Position numbers and translations under genes: made by a program
Source: Lachnospiraceae bacterium
GTDB lineage: Bacteria; Bacillota; Clostridia; Lachnospirales; Lachnospiraceae
Reading direction: 5' to 3'
DNA length: 64,000 nt
NCBI GenBank assembly: GCA_022791635.1
Contig: JAAVZL010000037.1
Coordinates: 16,242-80,241 of the forward strand
Shown here: positions 3,764-58,164 of the stretch, piece after piece
Numbering within the stretch: the stretch's first letter is position 1
Layout: each line of letters opens with the position of its first letter
Notes under the pieces: generated by a model
Seen by the model: the letters and a program-made list of their open reading frames with translations, nothing else
Database searches by the model: none
Told to the model about the DNA's origin: nothing

Positions 3764-3801
3764 ACTAAAACAGACAAATCGGAGAAAGCAGGAGAATACG
3801 G

Positions 3802-51960: not shown

Positions 51961-51974
51961 AAGAGGTGAGATCC

Positions 51975-53096
51975 ATGAAGAAGCTGTTTTTGTGCGAAAT
52001 ATGGTTTCTGCTGTTCGCTCTGTCTGCCTGCGGCCGGGAGAAGAAAGCAGAGGAGCCTGCCGCAACGTTCCGGGAGGAGCTGCTTTTCGGAGAGGAGACG
52101 GAGAATACGGGCTCTTTTGGAATTCCGATCCGTATTTATCACAGCGATGGGAGTGGAGAGTACCTCTGTGTGAGTATGGCCCGGACGGAAGAGATTACGC
52201 CGGAGATCCTCTTTTTGAATTTGTCTTTCTACCAGATGGTGCCGGATACCATGGATGTCAGAAGCTTTGGGCAGAAAAAGCGGGAGGATAAAGGCTTGCT
52301 TTTGACGCTGGATTTGCCGAAAGAGTTTGAAAACTATATTTCCAAACTAGATGAGCAAAAAGAAGCCCTTGTTTTGGGAAGTGTGGTAAATACATTTTTG
52401 GATGCTTATGCGGGACAGGCGATTCTGCTCACAGTGGAAGGGGAAGCGCTGACAACAGAGCATAACGCCTACTCGGAGGCTCTTGAGCGGTATCCTTATC
52501 AGGAGGCTTCCTATCAGGTAGTGGCAAAGGAGCTGTCAGAGGGCGGAATCGAGATTTCCTATCCTCAGATTACAGGGCTTTCGGATGAGAGCATTGAGCA
52601 AAATTGGAATGAGATAATCAGCGGGCACGCGAGAAAGGCTTTTGAGGACGCGGAGGAAGGGAGCAGTCTTACGGTCAGTTATACGATAAAGACCATGAAT
52701 GATCAGCTTCTCTCTATTTTGATTGAAGGGGATTATCTGGCGCCGGGCGGGGCTTACCCTAGCGGTTTTCGGTATACTTATAATATTGATATGAGATCCG
52801 GTGAGAGTGTGCGGCTGGTGCATTACCGGGATGTGGATCAGCTGGCCAGGGAGCTGCTTGAAGGGGACGGCTATACGGTGGAAGGAGAGCTGGGAGAGGA
52901 GTTTCAGGAGCGGCTGGCGATTCTTTACGGGGATGCCGGGCAGCTGGCAGATGTTTTGCGGGGATTTGATTATGGGGAGAATCGGGAGACGCCAAGCGGG
53001 TTTTCCTATCAGGAGAACGGGAGGACGCATTTGTGTATTGAGGTGCCGCATGCTTTGGGGGATTGGGTGGATGTTATGTTGGATGGGATGTCATGA
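51975..53096 (+). CDS. Lipoprotein with a GerMN domain and a DUF4163/DUF3298 (PdaC/RsiV-like) domain
   Basis: Lipobox LSAC; LTLDL...SVVNTF...LTVEGE; ISYPQITG...LLSI...AYP...YNIDM. Confidence 0.65.
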   Translation: MKKLFLCEIWFLLFALSACGREKKAEEPAATFREELLFGEETENTGSFGIPIRIYHSDGSGEYLCVSMARTEEITPEILFLNLSFYQMVPDTMDVRSFGQKKREDKGLLLTLDLPKEFENYISKLDEQKEALVLGSVVNTFLDAYAGQAILLTVEGEALTTEHNAYSEALERYPYQEASYQVVAKELSEGGIEISYPQITGLSDESIEQNWNEIISGHARKAFEDAEEGSSLTVSYTIKTMNDQLLSILIEGDYLAPGGAYPSGFRYTYNIDMRSGESVRLVHYRDVDQLARELLEGDGYTVEGELGEEFQERLAILYGDAGQLADVLRGFDYGENRETPSGFSYQENGRTHLCIEVPHALGDWVDVMLDGMS

Positions 53097-53138
53097 AGTT
53101 GAGTCTGTAAAGATTACCGGCGCAGGCTTAACTTCATG
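53092..53138. repeat. Palindromic element family 1, minimal copy (possible terminator)
   Basis: CATGAAGTTGAGTCTG/CAGGCTTAACTTCATG with loop TAAAGATTACCGGCG. Confidence 0.7.
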
Positions 53139-53268
53139 GCATTGGGGAAAAGATGTATATAATTGAGTGAATATTTTGTAAAATTTGAATAATTTGTGAA
53201 AAATAAAATGATTATACAATTAATGATAGAAAAACATGAAAAAAAATAAAATTTTTTTGAAAAAAGTG

Positions 53269-53297
53269 TTGACAAATGGGAATTGTGGAGTTATAAT
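53269..53297 (+). promoter_or_regulatory. Perfect sigma-A promoter with AT-rich upstream element
   Basis: TTGACA-17bp-TATAAT preceded by A/T tracts. Confidence 0.88.
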
Positions 53298-53303
53298 GAT
53301 TTC

Positions 53304-53872
53304 AACATAAGAAATACAAAACACCACATAATCTAAGCGATATATAAAATATATATTTCATATAGATGTGAGGTGAAAAATTAAGAAAGAGAGGTACGGA
53401 CCAACAAAAACTTAACGAATTGCCTCATAATTTAAGAAAAGGAGGTACGGACCGAAGTACAATTAGGTTAGACCTTCTACTATAAAAGAAGAGACGGGTG
53501 TAGTGCACATCTGAATCGGAAGAGTATAGTAAGAAGAAGGTCAGGGACAAAAAAGTTCGACGAGGATCGGTAAAGAAGAAGCCGGGAAAGAAGTAAAAAG
53601 AAGAAGAGAACAAACCGGAAAAGAAAATCTTATGATTACAGAGGGGAAATGCCGAGAACAGAAGAAGTCGAACGGAAGAAGTCAATAAGACTTCAAAAAA
53701 TTACCAAACTGAAGAAAAAAATTTCGAAGGCGGAGGTTTTTGGAAGAAAAATTCAGAATGGTAGCGTAACTTGAAAACCAGGTAAAGAAAAGAGGTAAAA
53801 GTCCAATGGACAGCATAGTTTAACAGAGGGTATCAGATGACGAAAAGTACTGATACCCTCTAATTCTGTTTT
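53304..53872 (+). ncRNA. Candidate large structured purine-rich ncRNA (unassigned)
   Basis: Consensus promoter, no credible ORF, several nested helices, repeated 22-nt motif, closing hairpin at 53825-53861. Confidence 0.6.
53825..53872 (+). terminator. Hairpin ending the candidate ncRNA
   Basis: AGAGGGTATCAG/CTGATACCCTCT then AATTCTGTTTT; a weaker hairpin plus T8 follows to ~53922. Confidence 0.6.
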
Positions 53873-54031
53873 AGCAGGGGGCAATTCATAAGCGGTGAGG
53901 CTTTTGAGTTGGTCTTTTTTTATGTAAACAAAAGTCTTCCATAGCTTTTGGGATGACTTCCCGCCGGATTTATGTTACACTAGGAATCAAAAGGCTGTGG
54001 AACTATTTTTGATAGAAACGGAAAGAGGTTT

Positions 54032-54739
54032 GTGTTGGCGCATTTTGTTGAACTGAAGCAGGTGAAAAAGATCTATCAGATGGGGGAGGTTTCCATTCCG
54101 GCTGTGGACGGGATTGACTTTGAGATAGAAAAAGGGGAGTTTGTAGTGATTGTGGGCCCCAGTGGGGCGGGCAAAACTACGGTCCTTAATATTCTGGGGG
54201 GAATGGATACCTGTACCTCCGGGGAGGTCTGGGTGGACGGAAGGGATATCAGCAGCTTTAAGGGAAAAGCCCTGACGGCTTACCGCCGGGATGATATCGG
54301 CTTTGTATTTCAGTTTTACAATCTGGTGCAGAATCTTACGGCCCTGGAAAATGTGGAGCTGGCCTTGCAGATTTGTAAGGATCCTCTGGACGCGGAGCAG
54401 GTGTTGAAGGAGGTTGGCCTGGAGGGGAGAAAGGGGAATTTCCCGGCGCAGCTTTCCGGCGGGGAGCAGCAGAGGGTGGCCATTGCCAGGGCCTTGGCCA
54501 AGAATCCCAAGCTTTTGCTCTGTGACGAGCCTACGGGGGCATTGGACTACAATACGGGCAAGGCGATTCTCAAGCTTTTGCAGGATACCTGCCGGGAAAA
54601 GGGCATGACGGTGATTGTCATTACCCATAACCAGGCCATTGCGCCCATGGCAGATCGGGTGATTAAAATCAAGAACGGCCTGGTAAGCCGCATGGAGCTG
54701 ATTGAGGAGCCGGTTTCTGTGGAGACGATTGAATGGTAA
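54032..54739 (+). CDS. ABC transporter ATP-binding protein (LolD/SalX type)
   Basis: [41 protein letters not shown]. Confidence 0.95.
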
Positions 54740-57700
54740 GACGGGCCTTAAAAAAAGAATTTTATATGGAAGTTCGGAAAACTCTGAACCGTTTTCTGTC
54801 GATCTTGCTCATCAATGCCCTGGGAGTGGCTTTTTTTGCCGGGGTTCGGGCTTCTAAGCCGGATATGCGGCTGTCTGCCGACGCCTTTTTTGACGAGAGC
54901 AGGCTTATGGACCTTCGGGTTATGGGAACCTTGGGAATGACGAAGGAGGATGTGAGGGCCATTGAGGCAGTGGAGGGCGTGGAGGCGGTTATGCCTGTGT
55001 ACTCGGTGGACATGTTCGGACAGCTTCTGGACCGGCAGCTGAATCTCCAGGTCATGTCCAAGCCCGAGGAAATGAACCGGATTCACGTGAGGGAGGGACG
55101 TCTTCCGGAGAAAAAAGAGGAGTGCCTGGTGGATTACAAGCTGTTCACCTCCGGTCTTTGTGCCCTGGGAGATGAGATCACCCTTGCCTCCGGTACGGAG
55201 GAGGAGACCGAAGATCTGGTGAACCAGGAGACCTTTACCGTTGTGGGGGCAGGAACGACTTCCTATTATATGTCTCTTGACCGGGGGACTACCGGTATCG
55301 GCAGCGGAAGCCTGGACGGCTTTCTGGTGGTACTGCCGGAGGTGTTTGAGCAGGATTATTATACCCAGATCTGCGTGACAGCCCGGGGAGCCTATGAGCT
55401 GACCTGCTATACGGAGGAATACGATGCCCTGGTGGATGAGCTGGCGGAGCGGATTGAGGGCATAGAAAAGGAGCGGTGTGAGATCCGCTATGCTCAGATA
55501 CAGGAGGAGGGCCAGGAAAAGATAGCCGAGGCAGAGCAGGAAGTGGCCGACGGCGAGCAGAAGCTTAAGGATGCAGGGGAGGAGCTTGAGGATGCAAGGG
55601 GAAAGCTTAAGGATGCAGAGGAAAAGCTTGAGGACGGAAGAAGAGAGCTGGCCGACGGAGAGGCGGAATTTGCCGATAAGGAGCGGGAATTTCTGGATGC
55701 AAAGCAGGAGGTGGCCGACGGCTGGTCAGAGCTTCATAAGGCCCAGGAGAAGCTGGTAAAGGCTACCTTTGAGATTCAAAAGGGATATGAGAGCTATGAG
55801 AGAAATAAGGCGGAGCTGGACGCAGGCTACGCCCAGCTTGCTCCGGCGAAGGAGCAGCTTGCCCAGGTAGAGGAGGGCCTTGCAGCGGCCCAAGGAGGCC
55901 TTGCCCAGGTAGAGGAGGGCCTTTCCCAGATTGCGGCCGTGAGACAAAGGTGTGAAGAGCTTTCCCAGAGAGAGCCGGAAAGCCTTACGGCAGAGGAAGC
56001 GGAGGAGCTGGCCGTTCTTCTGGAGCAGGAAGCCAGCGGGCAATGGAACGGTGCAGAGGCAGAGCTTAAAGAGCAGCAGGCAGAACTTACGGCGACCAAG
56101 ACCCAGCTATCCGCCGTACAGGCTCAGCTTGCCCCCGTTGTGGCGGAAAATACGGCCAAGCTGGATGCAGGGGCCGAGGCTCTGGCGGAGGGAAAGCGGC
56201 AGCTTGACGCAGGCAGTGATGAGGTAGATGCGGGAAACAGCGAGGCCTACCATGCGGAGCAGGAGCTTCTTGAGGCAGAAGAGGAGCTGGCCGACGGAGA
56301 GAAGAAGCTGGCCGACGCAAGGGCAGAGCTAGCAGACGCCCGCAAGACTCTCAAGGACGCCGAGGAGGAGCTTGCCGATGCCAAAGAGGAGTTTGCCGAC
56401 GGAGAGGCAGAGTACGAAAAGGCCCTGGCAGAAAATGAGGAGACCCTGGCCGACGCCAAGGTGAAGATTGCCGATGCAAAAGAGGAGCTTGCCGATCTAA
56501 AGCAGCCCGAGTGGTATGTGCTGGATCGTCAGTACATTCAGACCTACGTGGAATATGGAAACGATGCGGATCGCATCGGAGCCATCGGAGAGGTATTTCC
56601 GGTGATCTTCTTTTTGGTGGCCGCCCTGGTGAGTCTCACCACCATGACCCGTATGGTAGAGGAGCAGAGAACCCAGATAGGAACCTTAAAGGCGCTGGGC
56701 TATGGAAAAGGAGCCATCGCTTCCAAATATATACTGTACGCCCTGCTATCCAGCCTCCTGGGAAGCCTTTTTGGCCTTGTGGCCGGACAGAAGCTTCTTC
56801 CGTCCGTGATCATCAGCGCCTACAAGATTCTCTATAACAATCTGCCCGACATTCTGACGCCCCTGAATCCGGAATATTCCCTGACCGCAGCAGCCGTAGC
56901 AGTATCTCTTACGACCCTGGCGGCTCTGGCCGCCTGCTACAAGGAGCTCAATGCAGTTCCCGCCAACCTCATGCGCCCGGCGGCGCCCAAATCCGGAAAA
57001 CGTGTTTTCCTGGAAAACGTAAGCTTTCTCTGGAAGCGGCTGACCTTCAGCCAGAAGGCGGCCATCCGCAACCTGGTTCGCTATAAAAAGCGCTTTCTGA
57101 TGACTGTATTCGGGATCGGCGGCTGTATGGCCCTGCTCTTGGTGGGCTTCGGGCTTAAAGATTCCATTCTTCATATCGGAAAGGGACAGTTTGGAAATGT
57201 ATTTGTCTACGACGGGACCATCGGAATCGACAAGGATGCAGAGGAAAAGGAGCGCAGAGAGCTTGCCGATAAGATAGAGAGCGATGCGCGGATCCCCCAC
57301 CATATGCGTGCCCTGGAAATTGCCGTAGACGCAGAGGCAGGCGGCGCCCCCCGAAGCGCCTACCTCATCGTACCGGAGAACAGGGAGGAGCTGAAAACCT
57401 ACATTCACCTTAAGGACCGGGAGACAGGAGAAGCCTATTCCCTGGATGACCAGGGAATCATTCTGACAGAAAAGCTGGCCACACTTCTCGGAGTCACCGA
57501 GGGAGATACCATAACCCTGAAGGAAGACGATACCAAGGCAATAGAGGCAAAGGTAGCCCATGTGACCGAGCAATACTTTATGCATTATATATATATGAGC
57601 AAAGACCTCTACGAGAGCCTCTACGGAGAGACCCCAGACTGGAACCAATGGTTTATGAAGAACAGCCGGCAAGATGAGGACTTCGAGGAGGAGCTTCGGA

Positions 57701-58164
57701 CCGAATACATCCAATACGACGCCGTATCAGACGTAGACTTTATCAGCGGCACGGCAGAGCGGGTGGCCGACATGCTCAAAAGCATGGATTTGATCATCTA
57801 CGTGCTGGTGATCGCCGCAGGGCTGTTGGCCTTCGTAGTCCTCTACAATCTCAACAATATCAATATCAACGAGCGCAGACGGGAGCTTGCCACCCTAAAG
57901 GTCCTCGGCTTTTTCGACCAAGAGGTCTCCGCTTATGTAAACCGAGAAAACATCCTCCTTACAATAATCGGAACCGGAGTTGGGGTAGGTCTGGGGCTCC
58001 TGCTCCACCAGTTTGTAATTCAAACAGCAGAAATCGACATGCTGATGTTCGGAAGAGCCATTGCGCCCGCCAGCTACCTTTACAGTGTACTTTTAACCTT
58101 CGCATTCTCCGCACTGGTAAACGGAGCAATGTTTTTTAAGCTGCAGAGTATTGATATGGTATAA
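54733..58164 (+). CDS. FtsX-like ABC permease with a long coiled-coil extracellular domain; stop appears 7 codons early
   Basis: FPVIFFLVAALV..TTMTRMVEEQRTQIGTLKALG, ERRRELATLKVLGF; the frame continues IDMV-TAA-SLKSVE-TAA to 58185. Confidence 0.9.
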   Translation: MVRRALKKEFYMEVRKTLNRFLSILLINALGVAFFAGVRASKPDMRLSADAFFDESRLMDLRVMGTLGMTKEDVRAIEAVEGVEAVMPVYSVDMFGQLLDRQLNLQVMSKPEEMNRIHVREGRLPEKKEECLVDYKLFTSGLCALGDEITLASGTEEETEDLVNQETFTVVGAGTTSYYMSLDRGTTGIGSGSLDGFLVVLPEVFEQDYYTQICVTARGAYELTCYTEEYDALVDELAERIEGIEKERCEIRYAQIQEEGQEKIAEAEQEVADGEQKLKDAGEELEDARGKLKDAEEKLEDGRRELADGEAEFADKEREFLDAKQEVADGWSELHKAQEKLVKATFEIQKGYESYERNKAELDAGYAQLAPAKEQLAQVEEGLAAAQGGLAQVEEGLSQIAAVRQRCEELSQREPESLTAEEAEELAVLLEQEASGQWNGAEAELKEQQAELTATKTQLSAVQAQLAPVVAENTAKLDAGAEALAEGKRQLDAGSDEVDAGNSEAYHAEQELLEAEEELADGEKKLADARAELADARKTLKDAEEELADAKEEFADGEAEYEKALAENEETLADAKVKIADAKEELADLKQPEWYVLDRQYIQTYVEYGNDADRIGAIGEVFPVIFFLVAALVSLTTMTRMVEEQRTQIGTLKALGYGKGAIASKYILYALLSSLLGSLFGLVAGQKLLPSVIISAYKILYNNLPDILTPLNPEYSLTAAAVAVSLTTLAALAACYKELNAVPANLMRPAAPKSGKRVFLENVSFLWKRLTFSQKAAIRNLVRYKKRFLMTVFGIGGCMALLLVGFGLKDSILHIGKGQFGNVFVYDGTIGIDKDAEEKERRELADKIESDARIPHHMRALEIAVDAEAGGAPRSAYLIVPENREELKTYIHLKDRETGEAYSLDDQGIILTEKLATLLGVTEGDTITLKEDDTKAIEAKVAHVTEQYFMHYIYMSKDLYESLYGETPDWNQWFMKNSRQDEDFEEELRTEYIQYDAVSDVDFISGTAERVADMLKSMDLIIYVLVIAAGLLAFVVLYNLNNININERRRELATLKVLGFFDQEVSAYVNRENILLTIIGTGVGVGLGLLLHQFVIQTAEIDMLMFGRAIAPASYLYSVLLTFAFSALVNGAMFFKLQSIDMV

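What the first reader, a model, noticed from the sequence alone, without database searches (positions are those of the whole stretch)
53269..53922. Candidate undescribed ~560-nt structured, purine-rich ncRNA behind a perfect sigma-A promoter
Seen: a ~930-bp gap between genes contains TTGACA-17-TATAAT with an AT-rich upstream tract, then a strongly A/G-rich sequence with no usable + strand start, closed by a 12-bp hairpin (53825-53861). The scarce pyrimidines fall largely into complementary helices: CACCACAT..ATCTA/TAGATGTGAGGTG (53322-53375); GACCTTCT-ACTATA/TATAGT..AGAAGGTC (53471-53542); GTTCGAC/GTCGAAC (53555-53673) enclosing TCGGTA/TGCCGA; GAAGTC/GACTTC (53678-53694); TTACCA..CTGAA/TTCAG..TGGTAG (53701-53764). 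A 22-nt motif, TTAAGAAA(G/A)(A/G)GAGGTACGGACC, occurs twice (53381-53402, 53432-53453); it carries an SD-like GAGGT with no start codon and a GGT-ACGG-ACC mini-hairpin. ANGGA motifs recur (ACGGA, AAGGA, AGGGA, ATGGA). I could not match it to tmRNA, RNase P, SRP or 6S by eye. Inference: an abundant stand-alone RNA, possibly a CsrB-like protein sponge (not established in Clostridia as far as I know), an Hfq/KhpAB or ribosome decoy, or a new large ornate RNA class.
Basis: partly seen in the sequence, partly recalled or inferred. Interest (0 to 1): 0.85.

Follow-up and report, generated by a model that had tools for sequence, protein, structure and literature searches.

The report
Lachnospiraceae RNA with ribosome-site modules
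The flagged gap holds a real, separately transcribed RNA gene from a widespread but undescribed family of gut Lachnospiraceae, built from ribosome-binding-site look-alikes and ending in a translatable five-codon reading frame that stops at the foot of its terminator.

Summary
A 12/12 sigma-A promoter (53269-53297), a purine-rich body (68% A+G), covarying helices and a terminator hairpin (53825-53861) are all present, and the unit is conserved in 27 of 28 genomes of the genus. No Rfam 15 family matches.

The RNA has a usable start: GAGGU, nine bases, then AUG GAC AGC AUA GUU UAA (53806-53823, MDSIV).

Among 106 distinct relatives from many Lachnospiraceae genera:
- the start codon switches between AUG, UUG and GUG, never CUG;
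- the stop switches between UAA, UAG and UGA;
- the frame has five sense codons in 85%;
- the terminator stem always begins within six bases before to one base after the stop.

The large helices are genus-specific additions. Flanking genes are unrelated across genera and often convergent, so this is a stand-alone gene, not a dedicated leader.

ANGGA motifs are neither enriched nor conserved, which argues against a CsrB-like sponge. My best reading is an RNA that acts through the ribosome. Its function is unproven.

The parts
53269..53297 (+). Sigma-A promoter, TTGACA-17 nt-TATAAT, with an A/T-rich upstream tract. The transcript probably starts near 53304.
   Evidence: 12/12 match. Both hexamers are kept with a variable spacer in the genus and in other genera.
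53304..53321 (+). Conserved 5' end of the transcript (AACAUAAGAAAUA...; in other genera ..CAUCAAAAGAAA..).
   Evidence: Alignments.
53322..53375 (+). Helix 1 (CACC.ACAU.AUCU / AGAU.GUGA.GGUG) enclosing an A/U hairpin.
   Evidence: MFE fold. Pair counts in 23 genus sequences, inner hairpin 22/22 with a U-A to A-U swap.
53381..53415 (+). Start-less ribosome-site module 1: UUAAGAAAGAGAGGUACGGACCA, then ACA AAA ACU UAA. SD 53391-53395, stop triplet 53413-53415.
   Evidence: Repeat confirmed. Family-wide module catalogue.
53420..53426 (+). Pyrimidine linker UUGCCUC (UUACCYC in relatives), complementary to GAGGUA. It is a possible anti-SD for module 1, module 2 or the 3' SD.
   Evidence: Conserved in RNAs with two modules. 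Predicted to pair with an SD. Covariation is inconclusive.
53432..53466 (+). Start-less ribosome-site module 2: UUAAGAAAAGGAGGUACGGACCG, then AAG UAC AAU UAG. SD 53441-53446, stop triplet 53464-53466.
53471..53542 (+). Helix 2 (GACCUUCUACUAUA / UAUAGU..AGAAGGUC) with an inner hairpin 53495-53513.
   Evidence: Compensatory changes in relatives.
53555..53673 (+). Three-way domain: GUUCGAC/GUCGAAC closing UCGGU/GCCGA (53567-53655) and CCGG/CCGG (53582-53618), with purine-rich (AAG)n loops.
   Evidence: RNAalifold finds all pairs kept in 23/23 sequences, with several compensatory changes.
53678..53694 (+). Hairpin GAAGUC-AAUAA-GACUUC.
   Evidence: U-A changes to C-G in two species.
53701..53764 (+). 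Helix 5 (UUACCA..CUGAA / UUCAG..UGGUAG) with an inner stem. It is a lineage-specific insertion.
   Evidence: Present in only about 7 of 23 genus sequences.
53792..53823 (+). Terminal module. SD GAGGU (53792-53796); a small stem GUCC/GGAC (53801-53811) around the start; mini-ORF AUG GAC AGC AUA GUU UAA (53806-53823, MDSIV). An invariant 20-mer spans 53800-53819.
53825..53872 (+). Intrinsic terminator: 12-bp stem 53825-53861 followed by AAUUCUGUUUU. The stem begins 2 nt after the stop codon.
53876..53924 (+). Second terminator-like hairpin followed by a run of seven U. It may be a back-up 3' end for transcripts that pass the first terminator.
   Evidence: -17.6 kcal/mol, z -4.4. Kept in the closest species.

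Best explanation
Window 53269-53924 is a stand-alone gene for an RNA of about 570-620 nt. It belongs to an undescribed family found across Lachnospiraceae.

Conserved core of the family (shown):
1. A consensus sigma-A promoter.
2. One to eight extended Shine-Dalgarno modules that lack a start codon. The consensus is YUAAGAAAG-GAGGUAC-RGWCC-A, then CCR (ACA or AAG in the window), two further triplets and UAA.
3. A last module of the same build that does carry AUG, UUG or GUG. It opens a frame of five sense codons (M-D/E-x-I/V-V), and the stop lies at the foot of the intrinsic terminator.

The purine-rich, covarying helices between the modules are additions of this genus.

Inferred mechanism: the RNA works through the ribosome. 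30S subunits dock on the start-less modules without initiating, either as decoy or standby sites or as STAB-SD-like protection against 5' decay. The last module is translated. A ribosome reaching its stop codon must cover and melt the 5' arm of the terminator or 3' hairpin. This couples 3'-end formation or lifetime of the RNA, and the dwell time of the ribosome, to the state of translation.

Stand-alone transcription, family membership and coding-type variation of the mini-ORF are shown. Ribosome docking, translation and any cellular effect are inferred.
For: Real, conserved gene:
- Single copy in its own genome.
- Found in 27 of 28 genus genomes at 66-92% identity.
- Promoter hexamers are kept while the spacer varies.
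- Helices and terminator covary.

Family:
- A covariance model of the 3' module matches 39 of 151 sampled genera of the family.
- The exact start-less module occurs in at least 120 species records; those with a taxon-level name are mostly Lachnospiraceae.
- 70 of 77 such loci have the 3' module downstream on the same strand.
- RNA length ranges from 193 to 780 nt.

Mini-ORF, 106 distinct copies (sequences):
- Start ATG 63, TTG 34, GTG 9, CTG 0.
- Five sense codons in 90.
- Stop TAG 55, TAA 33, TGA 18.
- Synonymous GAC/GAT, AGC/AGT and GTN variants occur.
- The terminator stem begins -6 to +1 from the last stop base, even when the frame has 6-9 codons.
- Third codon positions are the most variable.

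Start-less modules:
- They are the most conserved element, with a stop triplet at +9 in most copies.
- CCA at -3..-1 is rare before ordinary genes of this genome, 6 of 1067.
- The module is complementary to the genus's 16S 3' end..GGAUCACCUCCUUUCUA.

Not a dedicated leader:
- Upstream and downstream genes are unrelated across genera.
- About 40% of downstream genes are convergent.

Precedents from the literature:
- Strong SDs with bound ribosomes block RNase J1 in B. subtilis (PMC5737220 abstract).
- A ribosome stalled at the stop of the six-codon msrDL obstructs a terminator (PMC10314930).
- Extended SD pairing occurs in a Firmicute (PMC13009471).
Against: - There are no expression, ribosome-profiling or binding data.
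- In thermodynamic ensembles the SD cores are predicted to be more paired than the RNA average: unpaired probability 0.35 for start-less modules and 0.44 for the terminal SD, against 0.50 overall. A conserved ACCYC linker could sequester an SD.
- The 20-mer around the mini-ORF is invariant at synonymous sites within the genus. This points to an RNA-level constraint besides, or instead of, coding.
- The conservation of RGWCC-A-CCR-RAR-ACN-UAA in the start-less modules goes beyond what SD pairing explains. A dedicated protein or RNA partner is therefore not excluded.
- The module statistics are partly biased, because many loci were fetched with a pattern containing that motif.
Confidence: 0.45

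Rival explanations
1. Ribosome-mediated transcription attenuator. The mini-ORF plus terminator is a leader that lets RNA polymerase read into downstream genes when a ribosome stalls on it. In the window those genes are the MacB-type ABC transporter at 54032-58164. A stall could come from a ribosome-targeting drug, as with msrDL, vmlR or lmo0919.
For: - The geometry is that of known attenuators: a strong SD, a tiny frame, and a stop at the terminator foot (PMC10314930).
- Within the genus an ABC ATPase and FtsX/MacB permease often follow on the same strand.
Against: - Across genera the downstream genes have no common theme: GH3, DUF1538, amino-acid kinase, solute-binding proteins, histidine kinase, AddB, OPT transporter. 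About 40% are convergent, for example ProRS, RNase E/G, an MCP and a radical SAM enzyme.
- In the window a second terminator with U7 lies between the RNA and the transporter.
- The unit has its own consensus promoter 500 nt upstream and conserved content unrelated to a leader.
- No alternative antiterminator was identified.
Confidence: 0.12
2. The peptide is the product. fMet-Asp-Ser-Ile-Val (and the M-D/E-x-I/V-V relatives) is made in quantity. It acts either as a signal or metabolite, or in cis on the ribosome that makes it. The cis case would resemble the pentapeptide minigenes that confer macrolide tolerance (recalled from memory: Tenson, Mankin and colleagues; consensus M-hydrophobic-L/I-hydrophobic-V).
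For: - Length is strictly kept at five codons in 85% of copies.
- The second residue is acidic in 105 of 106 (partly imposed by the parsing pattern), the penultimate is I or V in 73, and the last is V in 61.
- Start and stop codons interchange.
- The promoter and SD are very strong.
Against: - Residue 3 and, in many genera, residues 4-5 vary freely.
- No export, processing or modification gene is linked.
- This reading explains neither the start-less modules nor the fixed position of the stop at the terminator.
- The acidic second residue does not fit the recalled macrolide-peptide consensus.
Confidence: 0.13
3. Protein sponge or scaffold. The repeated GGAGGUAC-RGWCC-ACC module, 1-8 copies and 7 in tandem in Anaerobutyricum hallii, titrates a dedicated RNA-binding protein. 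Candidates are CsrA, Hfq, KhpA/B or an unknown factor, rather than the ribosome.
For: - Copy number is variable and some RNAs carry tandem arrays.
- Conservation extends well beyond the SD core.
- csrA is present.
- (AAG)n tracts in this genus resemble Hfq-type purine repeats (memory).
Against: - For CsrA specifically, ANGGA is not enriched, only one GGA is conserved, and the second GGA of the module is lost in many copies (AGU or AGA).
- No candidate protein is linked in the neighbourhood.
- This reading does not explain the translated terminal frame.
Confidence: 0.12
4. Base-pairing small RNA. Conserved single-stranded segments, such as the invariant 20-mer, act as seeds on mRNA targets. The SD-like tracts would mimic targets of C-rich sRNAs.
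For: - Stand-alone promoter and terminator architecture.
- The 20-mer is invariant in the genus.
Against: - No extended antisense match elsewhere in the genome.
- The 20-mer varies in a codon-like way outside the genus.
Confidence: 0.06

Closest known systems
msrDL-type ribosome-mediated transcription attenuators (also vmlR, lmo0919, ermK and mefAL leaders)
   Same: A stringent SD, a frame of a few codons (msrDL: MYLIFM), and an intrinsic terminator that a ribosome held at the stop codon obstructs (PMC10314930). The terminal module 53792-53872 has this geometry.
   Different: Here the unit is a separate gene with its own consensus promoter 0.2-0.8 kb upstream. The downstream genes are unrelated and often convergent. 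No resistance gene is attached. No inducer or antiterminator is known.
STAB-SD and strong-SD 5' stabilisers of Firmicute mRNAs (cry3A; hbs, aprE leaders)
   Same: A Shine-Dalgarno sequence complementary to the 16S 3' end, placed near the 5' end and not used to start a protein. Bound 30S or ribosomes block RNase J1 (PMC5737220 abstract and PMC4113751 title; details of cry3A from memory).
   Different: The modules are repeated 1-8 times. They carry about 20 further conserved bases (RGWCC-A-CCR-RAR-ACN-UAA). They sit on an RNA with no protein gene to stabilise.
Minigenes and start-stop sites (phage lambda bar AUG-AUA-UAA; synthetic 3-8 codon minigenes)
   Same: Very short frames behind strong SDs. 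Known effects are on the translation apparatus, through peptidyl-tRNA drop-off and tRNA sequestration, rather than through a protein product (PMC2490762 and PMC10192219 abstracts).
   Different: This is a conserved chromosomal gene family with a fixed five-codon length, a conserved acidic second residue and an obligatory terminator at the stop. No toxicity or link to Pth has been shown.
Large orphan structured RNAs of Bacillota (OLE, ROOL, GOLLD, raiA motif)
   Same: In this genus it is a promoter-to-terminator RNA of about 570 nt with several covarying helices and no protein-sized frame.
   Different: There is no match to their Rfam models. The conserved core is short and linear, made of SD modules and a mini-ORF. 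The helices are lineage-specific. Some family members are under 220 nt.
CsrB/RsmZ-type sponges
   Same: Repeated purine-rich motifs on an abundant-looking stand-alone RNA.
   Different: GGA motifs are at the chance level and not conserved. The repeated unit is an SD plus spacer, not a GGA hairpin loop.

Membership tests
Rfam families OLE, ROOL, GOLLD, raiA, CsrB, 6S, tmRNA, any other | Match to the family covariance model at or near its gathering score | tested here: not met
   No hit in the window at gathering thresholds. Only two chance-level hits at E up to 10 over 53100-54050. No hit on 16 diverse homologous loci except one tRNA. ARAGORN finds nothing. 6S RNA is on another contig.
CsrB/RsmZ-type CsrA sponge | Many GGA/ANGGA motifs, above chance and conserved, typically in hairpin loops | tested here: not met
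   ANGGA 6 against 7.1 +/- 2.2 and GGA 13 against 15.7 +/- 2.3 in shuffles. One GGA is kept in at least 90% of 23 genus sequences.
Ribosome-mediated transcription attenuator (leader peptide type) | Short frame with an SD whose translating or stalled ribosome overlaps an intrinsic terminator | tested here: met
   SD 53792-53796, frame 53806-53823, stem from 53825. The family-wide gap from stop to stem is -6 to +1.
Ribosome-mediated transcription attenuator (leader peptide type) | A co-oriented downstream gene or operon of consistent function under its control | tested here: not met
   Neighbours are unrelated across genera and about 40% are convergent. A second terminator lies before the ABC genes in the window.
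Ribosome-mediated transcription attenuator (leader peptide type) | Inducer-dependent stalling and read-through | not testable with these tools
   Needs Term-seq, northern blots or toeprinting.
STAB-SD-type 5' stabiliser | SD complementary to the 16S 3' end, near the 5' end, without a start codon at initiation distance | tested here: met
   Modules at 53381-53415 and 53432-53466 have ACA and AAG at the start position. The 16S tail of the genus is ..GGAUCACCUCCUUUCUA.
STAB-SD-type 5' stabiliser | 30S binding that lengthens the RNA half-life | not testable with these tools
   Predicted accessibility is equivocal: unpaired probability 0.35, while the local fold is weak, z -0.76.
Dual-function sRNA / minigene RNA | A translated short frame on a stand-alone RNA | tested here: inconclusive
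   Comparative signals of translation are strong: the start is NUG with N = A, U or G only, all three stops are used, length is kept and synonymous changes occur. There are no ribosome-profiling or peptide data.

The most novel reading that the evidence does not exclude
The family is a housekeeping-type regulator of the translation machinery, comparable to what 6S RNA is for RNA polymerase. It would be an abundant RNA that imitates translation initiation regions. Its invariant GGAGGUAC-RGWCC-ACC modules would hold 30S subunits, or a still unknown initiation-associated factor. The terminal five-codon minigene running into the 3' hairpin would set the dwell time of ribosomes and the turnover of the RNA according to translational capacity.
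Probability: 0.2. Interest if true: 0.9.

Novelty: new variant of a known kind. Interest (0 to 1): 0.68.

Why it matters
Lachnospiraceae are among the most abundant and physiologically important gut bacteria, yet almost nothing is known about their RNA regulators. This family has four notable properties:
- It is present in dozens of genera, including cultivable ones: Laedolimicola, Anaerosacchariphilus, Anaerobutyricum hallii DSM 3353, Bariatricus and Mediterraneibacter.
- It is driven by a consensus promoter.
- It is missing from Rfam.
- It is organised entirely around ribosome-binding modules and a five-codon gene fused to a terminator.

If it titrates or senses ribosomes, it would be a new layer of translation control. 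If the terminal module is a drug- or stress-sensing switch, it would be a widespread free-standing relative of resistance-gene attenuators. Either way it gives clear, testable constructs. It also shows that gene callers and RNA libraries both miss such units.

Tried and rejected
- Rfam at gathering and permissive thresholds, on the window and on 16 homologous loci: nothing relevant.
- tRNA or tmRNA: none.
- 6S RNA: located elsewhere in the genome.
- Protein-coding on either strand: all six frames are interrupted. The 86-codon minus-strand frame 53425-53685 is a by-product of the pyrimidine-rich complement.
- Antisense targets of the conserved segments in the own genome: only chance-level short matches.
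- Mimicry of another gene's ribosome site: the module occurs nowhere else as a non-coding element in the genome.
- Similarity or complementarity of the modules to 16S/23S beyond the anti-SD tail: only short chance words. RNAduplex suggests a bipartite pairing with the 16S tail, but part of it would need helix 45 to open, and I ran no control, so I make no claim.
- Conserved synteny or a functional theme among neighbours: none.
- Back-up terminators as a family rule: found in 27 of 109 loci against 11 of 102 controls, so enriched but not general.
- SD accessibility from folding ensembles: equivocal.
- A self-sequestering SD/anti-SD hairpin (GAGGUA with UUACCYC): predicted, but an A-C mismatch appears in many relatives, so it is unresolved.
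- Literature searches for a described Lachnospiraceae RNA of this kind: none found.
- Look-ups of this scan's own notes by place and by sequence: no look-alike windows.
- I did not run the count of structure pairs on the 671-column alignment, because that would have meant typing a very long structure string. Pair counts come from fold_alignment and my script.
Full report
**1. The observation**

The 930-bp gap between the upstream frame (51966-53096, no Pfam family) and an ABC ATPase (54032-54739) holds a perfect TTGACA-17-TATAAT at 53269-53297. A body that is 68% purine follows, against 54% for the window. It ends in a 12-bp hairpin at 53825-53861. The stretch 53784-53875 folds at -25.9 kcal/mol, z -4.3. 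All six frames are interrupted.

The 22-nt repeat is at 53381-53402 and 53432-53453.

- ANGGA motifs are at the chance level, 6 against 7.1 +/- 2.2, and only one GGA is conserved.
- There is a usable start. GAGGU (53792-53796) is followed nine bases later by AUG GAC AGC AUA GUU UAA (53806-53823).

**2. It is a real gene, conserved in the genus**

The stretch is single-copy in its genome. BLAST finds it in 27 of 28 genomes of the same genus at 66-92% identity. Public records name these genomes Laedolimicola, Merdisoma, Anaerosacchariphilus or 'Merdimonas'.

The two promoter hexamers are kept while the 17-nt spacer changes freely. In a 23-sequence alignment (A3), RNAalifold and my pair counts show these helices maintained with one-sided and compensatory changes:
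- the three-way domain 53555-53673;
- the hairpin 53678-53694;
- helix 53471-53542;
- the A/U hairpin inside helix 1;
- the terminator.

Helix 53701-53764 is an insertion of the closest relatives only.

**3. It belongs to a much wider family, and the family core is not the helices**

An invariant 20-mer (53800-53819) lies just 5' of the terminator. I built a covariance model of the SD, 20-mer and terminator (A1/R1). It matches 39 of 151 sampled genera of the family at E up to 0.01, about 25 of them strongly.

Upstream of those matches, at 130-580 nt, lies the same consensus promoter.

Those carrying a taxon-level name are mostly Lachnospiraceae: Roseburia, Hungatella, Anaerobutyricum hallii DSM 3353, Mediterraneibacter, Bariatricus, Eisenbergiella and others. 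In 70 of 77 newly fetched loci the 3' module follows on the same strand.

Family members measure 193-780 nt. The shortest consist only of the 5' end, one or two modules, a short linker and the terminal module. The ornate purine-rich helices of the window are therefore genus-level elaborations. None of 16 diverse homologues matches any Rfam 15 family.

**4. The terminal module is a minigene**

Across 106 distinct copies (sequences):
- The start codon is ATG (63), TTG (34) or GTG (9), never CTG.
- There are five sense codons in 90, and 6-9 in the rest.
- The stop is TAG (55), TAA (33) or TGA (18).
- Peptides read MDSIV, MDEIV, MDSTV, MDTIV, MDNVH, MEEIV, MDSIVL and so on.
- Synonymous GAC/GAT, AGC/AGT and GTT/GTA/GTC/GTG changes occur.
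- Third codon positions vary most.

Whatever the length of the frame, the first paired base of the terminator stem lies 6 bases before to 1 base after the last base of the stop codon. A ribosome decoding the last codons must therefore occupy the 5' arm of the terminator.

There are caveats:
- My parsing pattern fixed G-R at the second codon.
- The model favours relatives of the seed.
- Within the genus the 20-mer is invariant even at synonymous sites, so an RNA-level constraint coexists. A small stem GUCC/GGAC around the AUG changes to AUCC/GGAU in other genera.

**5. The start-less modules**

The window's two copies carry ACA and AAG where the terminal module has AUG. Most genera have CCA or CCG there, and a few have UUG, GUG or AUG opening frames of 2-6 codons. 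A stop triplet sits exactly nine bases further in most copies. One search gives 146 of 171, but that count is inflated because many loci were fetched with a pattern containing the motif.

Copy number is 1-8, and A. hallii has seven in tandem. The AGAAAGGAGGU part is complementary to the genus's 16S 3' end..GGAUCACCUCCUUUCUA. The CCA just before the start position is unusual for this genome's genes, 6 of 1067. The module occurs nowhere else in the genome as a non-coding element.

Accessibility is unsettled. The segment 53375-53470 folds no better than shuffles (z -0.76). In full-length ensembles, however, the SD cores are predicted to be paired more often than average. A conserved UUACCYC linker (53420-53426) could pair with an SD, with inconclusive covariation.

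**6. Not a dedicated leader**

Nearest upstream and downstream frames from about 40 loci fall into many unrelated clusters. By Pfam:
- Downstream genes on the same strand include GH3, an ABC ATPase, DUF1538, an amino-acid kinase, solute-binding proteins, a histidine kinase, aldose epimerase, an OPT transporter and AddB.
- About 40% are convergent, including a radical SAM enzyme, CNNM, an aminotransferase, ProRS, an MCP and RNase E/G.

In the window a second terminator-like hairpin with U7 (53876-53924, z -4.4) separates the RNA from the MacB-type transporter (FtsX and MacB_PCD domains).

**7. Mechanism**

*Shown:*
- a stand-alone transcription unit;
- a family-wide core of SD modules;
- coding-type evolution of a five-codon frame locked to a terminator.

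*Inferred, about 45%:* the RNA acts through the ribosome. The start-less modules dock 30S subunits without initiation. They could act as decoy or standby sites, or as STAB-SD-like shields against 5' decay. In B. subtilis, strong SDs with bound ribosomes block RNase J1 (PMC5737220).

The terminal minigene is translated, and its ribosome collides with the 3' hairpin. This couples termination or RNA lifetime to translation. The msrDL ribosome, stalled at its stop, obstructs a terminator in the same way (PMC10314930).

*Rivals:*
- a true attenuator of downstream genes (12%);
- the pentapeptide as the product (13%);
- a sponge for a protein that recognises the module (12%; CsrA specifically is disfavoured);
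- a base-pairing sRNA (6%).

**8. Comparison and novelty**

The parts resemble known kinds: leader-peptide attenuators, STAB-SD stabilisers and minigenes. I found no family like it in Rfam 15 or in the literature I could search. Its distinguishing combination is a free-standing, consensus-promoted RNA made of start-less super-SD modules plus a fixed five-codon gene fused to its terminator, conserved across a bacterial family.

Notes from other agents of this scan describe what appear to be the same or related RNAs in other genomes and reach similar conclusions. I read them after forming my view, and they are not independent evidence. The sequence look-ups did not link them to this window.

I rate it a new variant of known kinds, with a 20% chance that it is something categorically new: a regulator that mimics initiation sites to act on the ribosome.

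Noticed in passing
window 53876-53924: A second terminator-like hairpin (-17.6 kcal/mol, z -4.4) followed by seven U lies about 15 nt after the first terminator. It is also present in the closest species. Across the family a second terminator within 125 nt occurs in 27 of 109 loci, against 11 of 102 control stretches.
   Followed up: partly
window 53950-53985: A weak promoter-like site (ATGACT, 17 nt, TACACT with TG upstream) lies before the ABC ATPase gene. It suggests the transporter operon has its own promoter. I saw it by eye; it falls below the scan's threshold.
   Followed up: no
L112 (Anaerobutyricum hallii DSM 3353, NZ_ACEP01000108.1) 1150-1600: Seven start-less SD modules in tandem at a period of about 55 nt, upstream of a seven-codon terminal frame (MDIIENH). 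This is an array form of the family.
   Followed up: partly
L029/L049 (G005:C6, CAJTAT010000006.1): One genome of the genus carries a second, shorter copy of about 320 nt. It has one module, helix 2 and helix 5 but lacks the three-way domain. It sits downstream of a gene whose C-terminus looks like an OmpR-type response regulator (by eye only).
   Followed up: no
L040, L045, L057 (CAVKIR010000173.1, CAVHYN010000081.1, CAVFGF010000050.1): Contigs carrying this Lachnospiraceae RNA are labelled Prevotella sp., Bulleidia sp. and Alistipes onderdonkii in their public records, although the genome tool places them in the window's genus. The record names are probably wrong or the bins are mixed.
   Followed up: no
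L046 (JBBQZU010000002.1, Flavobacteriales MAG) 3773-3792: This is the only exact 20-mer match outside the group. It lies inside a long coding frame with no SD, stop or terminator, so it is a chance match.
   Followed up: yes
L035, L063 upstream flank: In some other genera the RNA follows a small TSCPD-domain-like gene and a divergent gene of about 860 codons (recognised by eye, not run through Pfam). This local synteny is not shared with the window.
   Followed up: no
window 51966-53096: The 376-codon frame upstream of the RNA has no Pfam family at E up to 1e-5, but it is conserved next to the RNA in several species of the genus.
   Followed up: no
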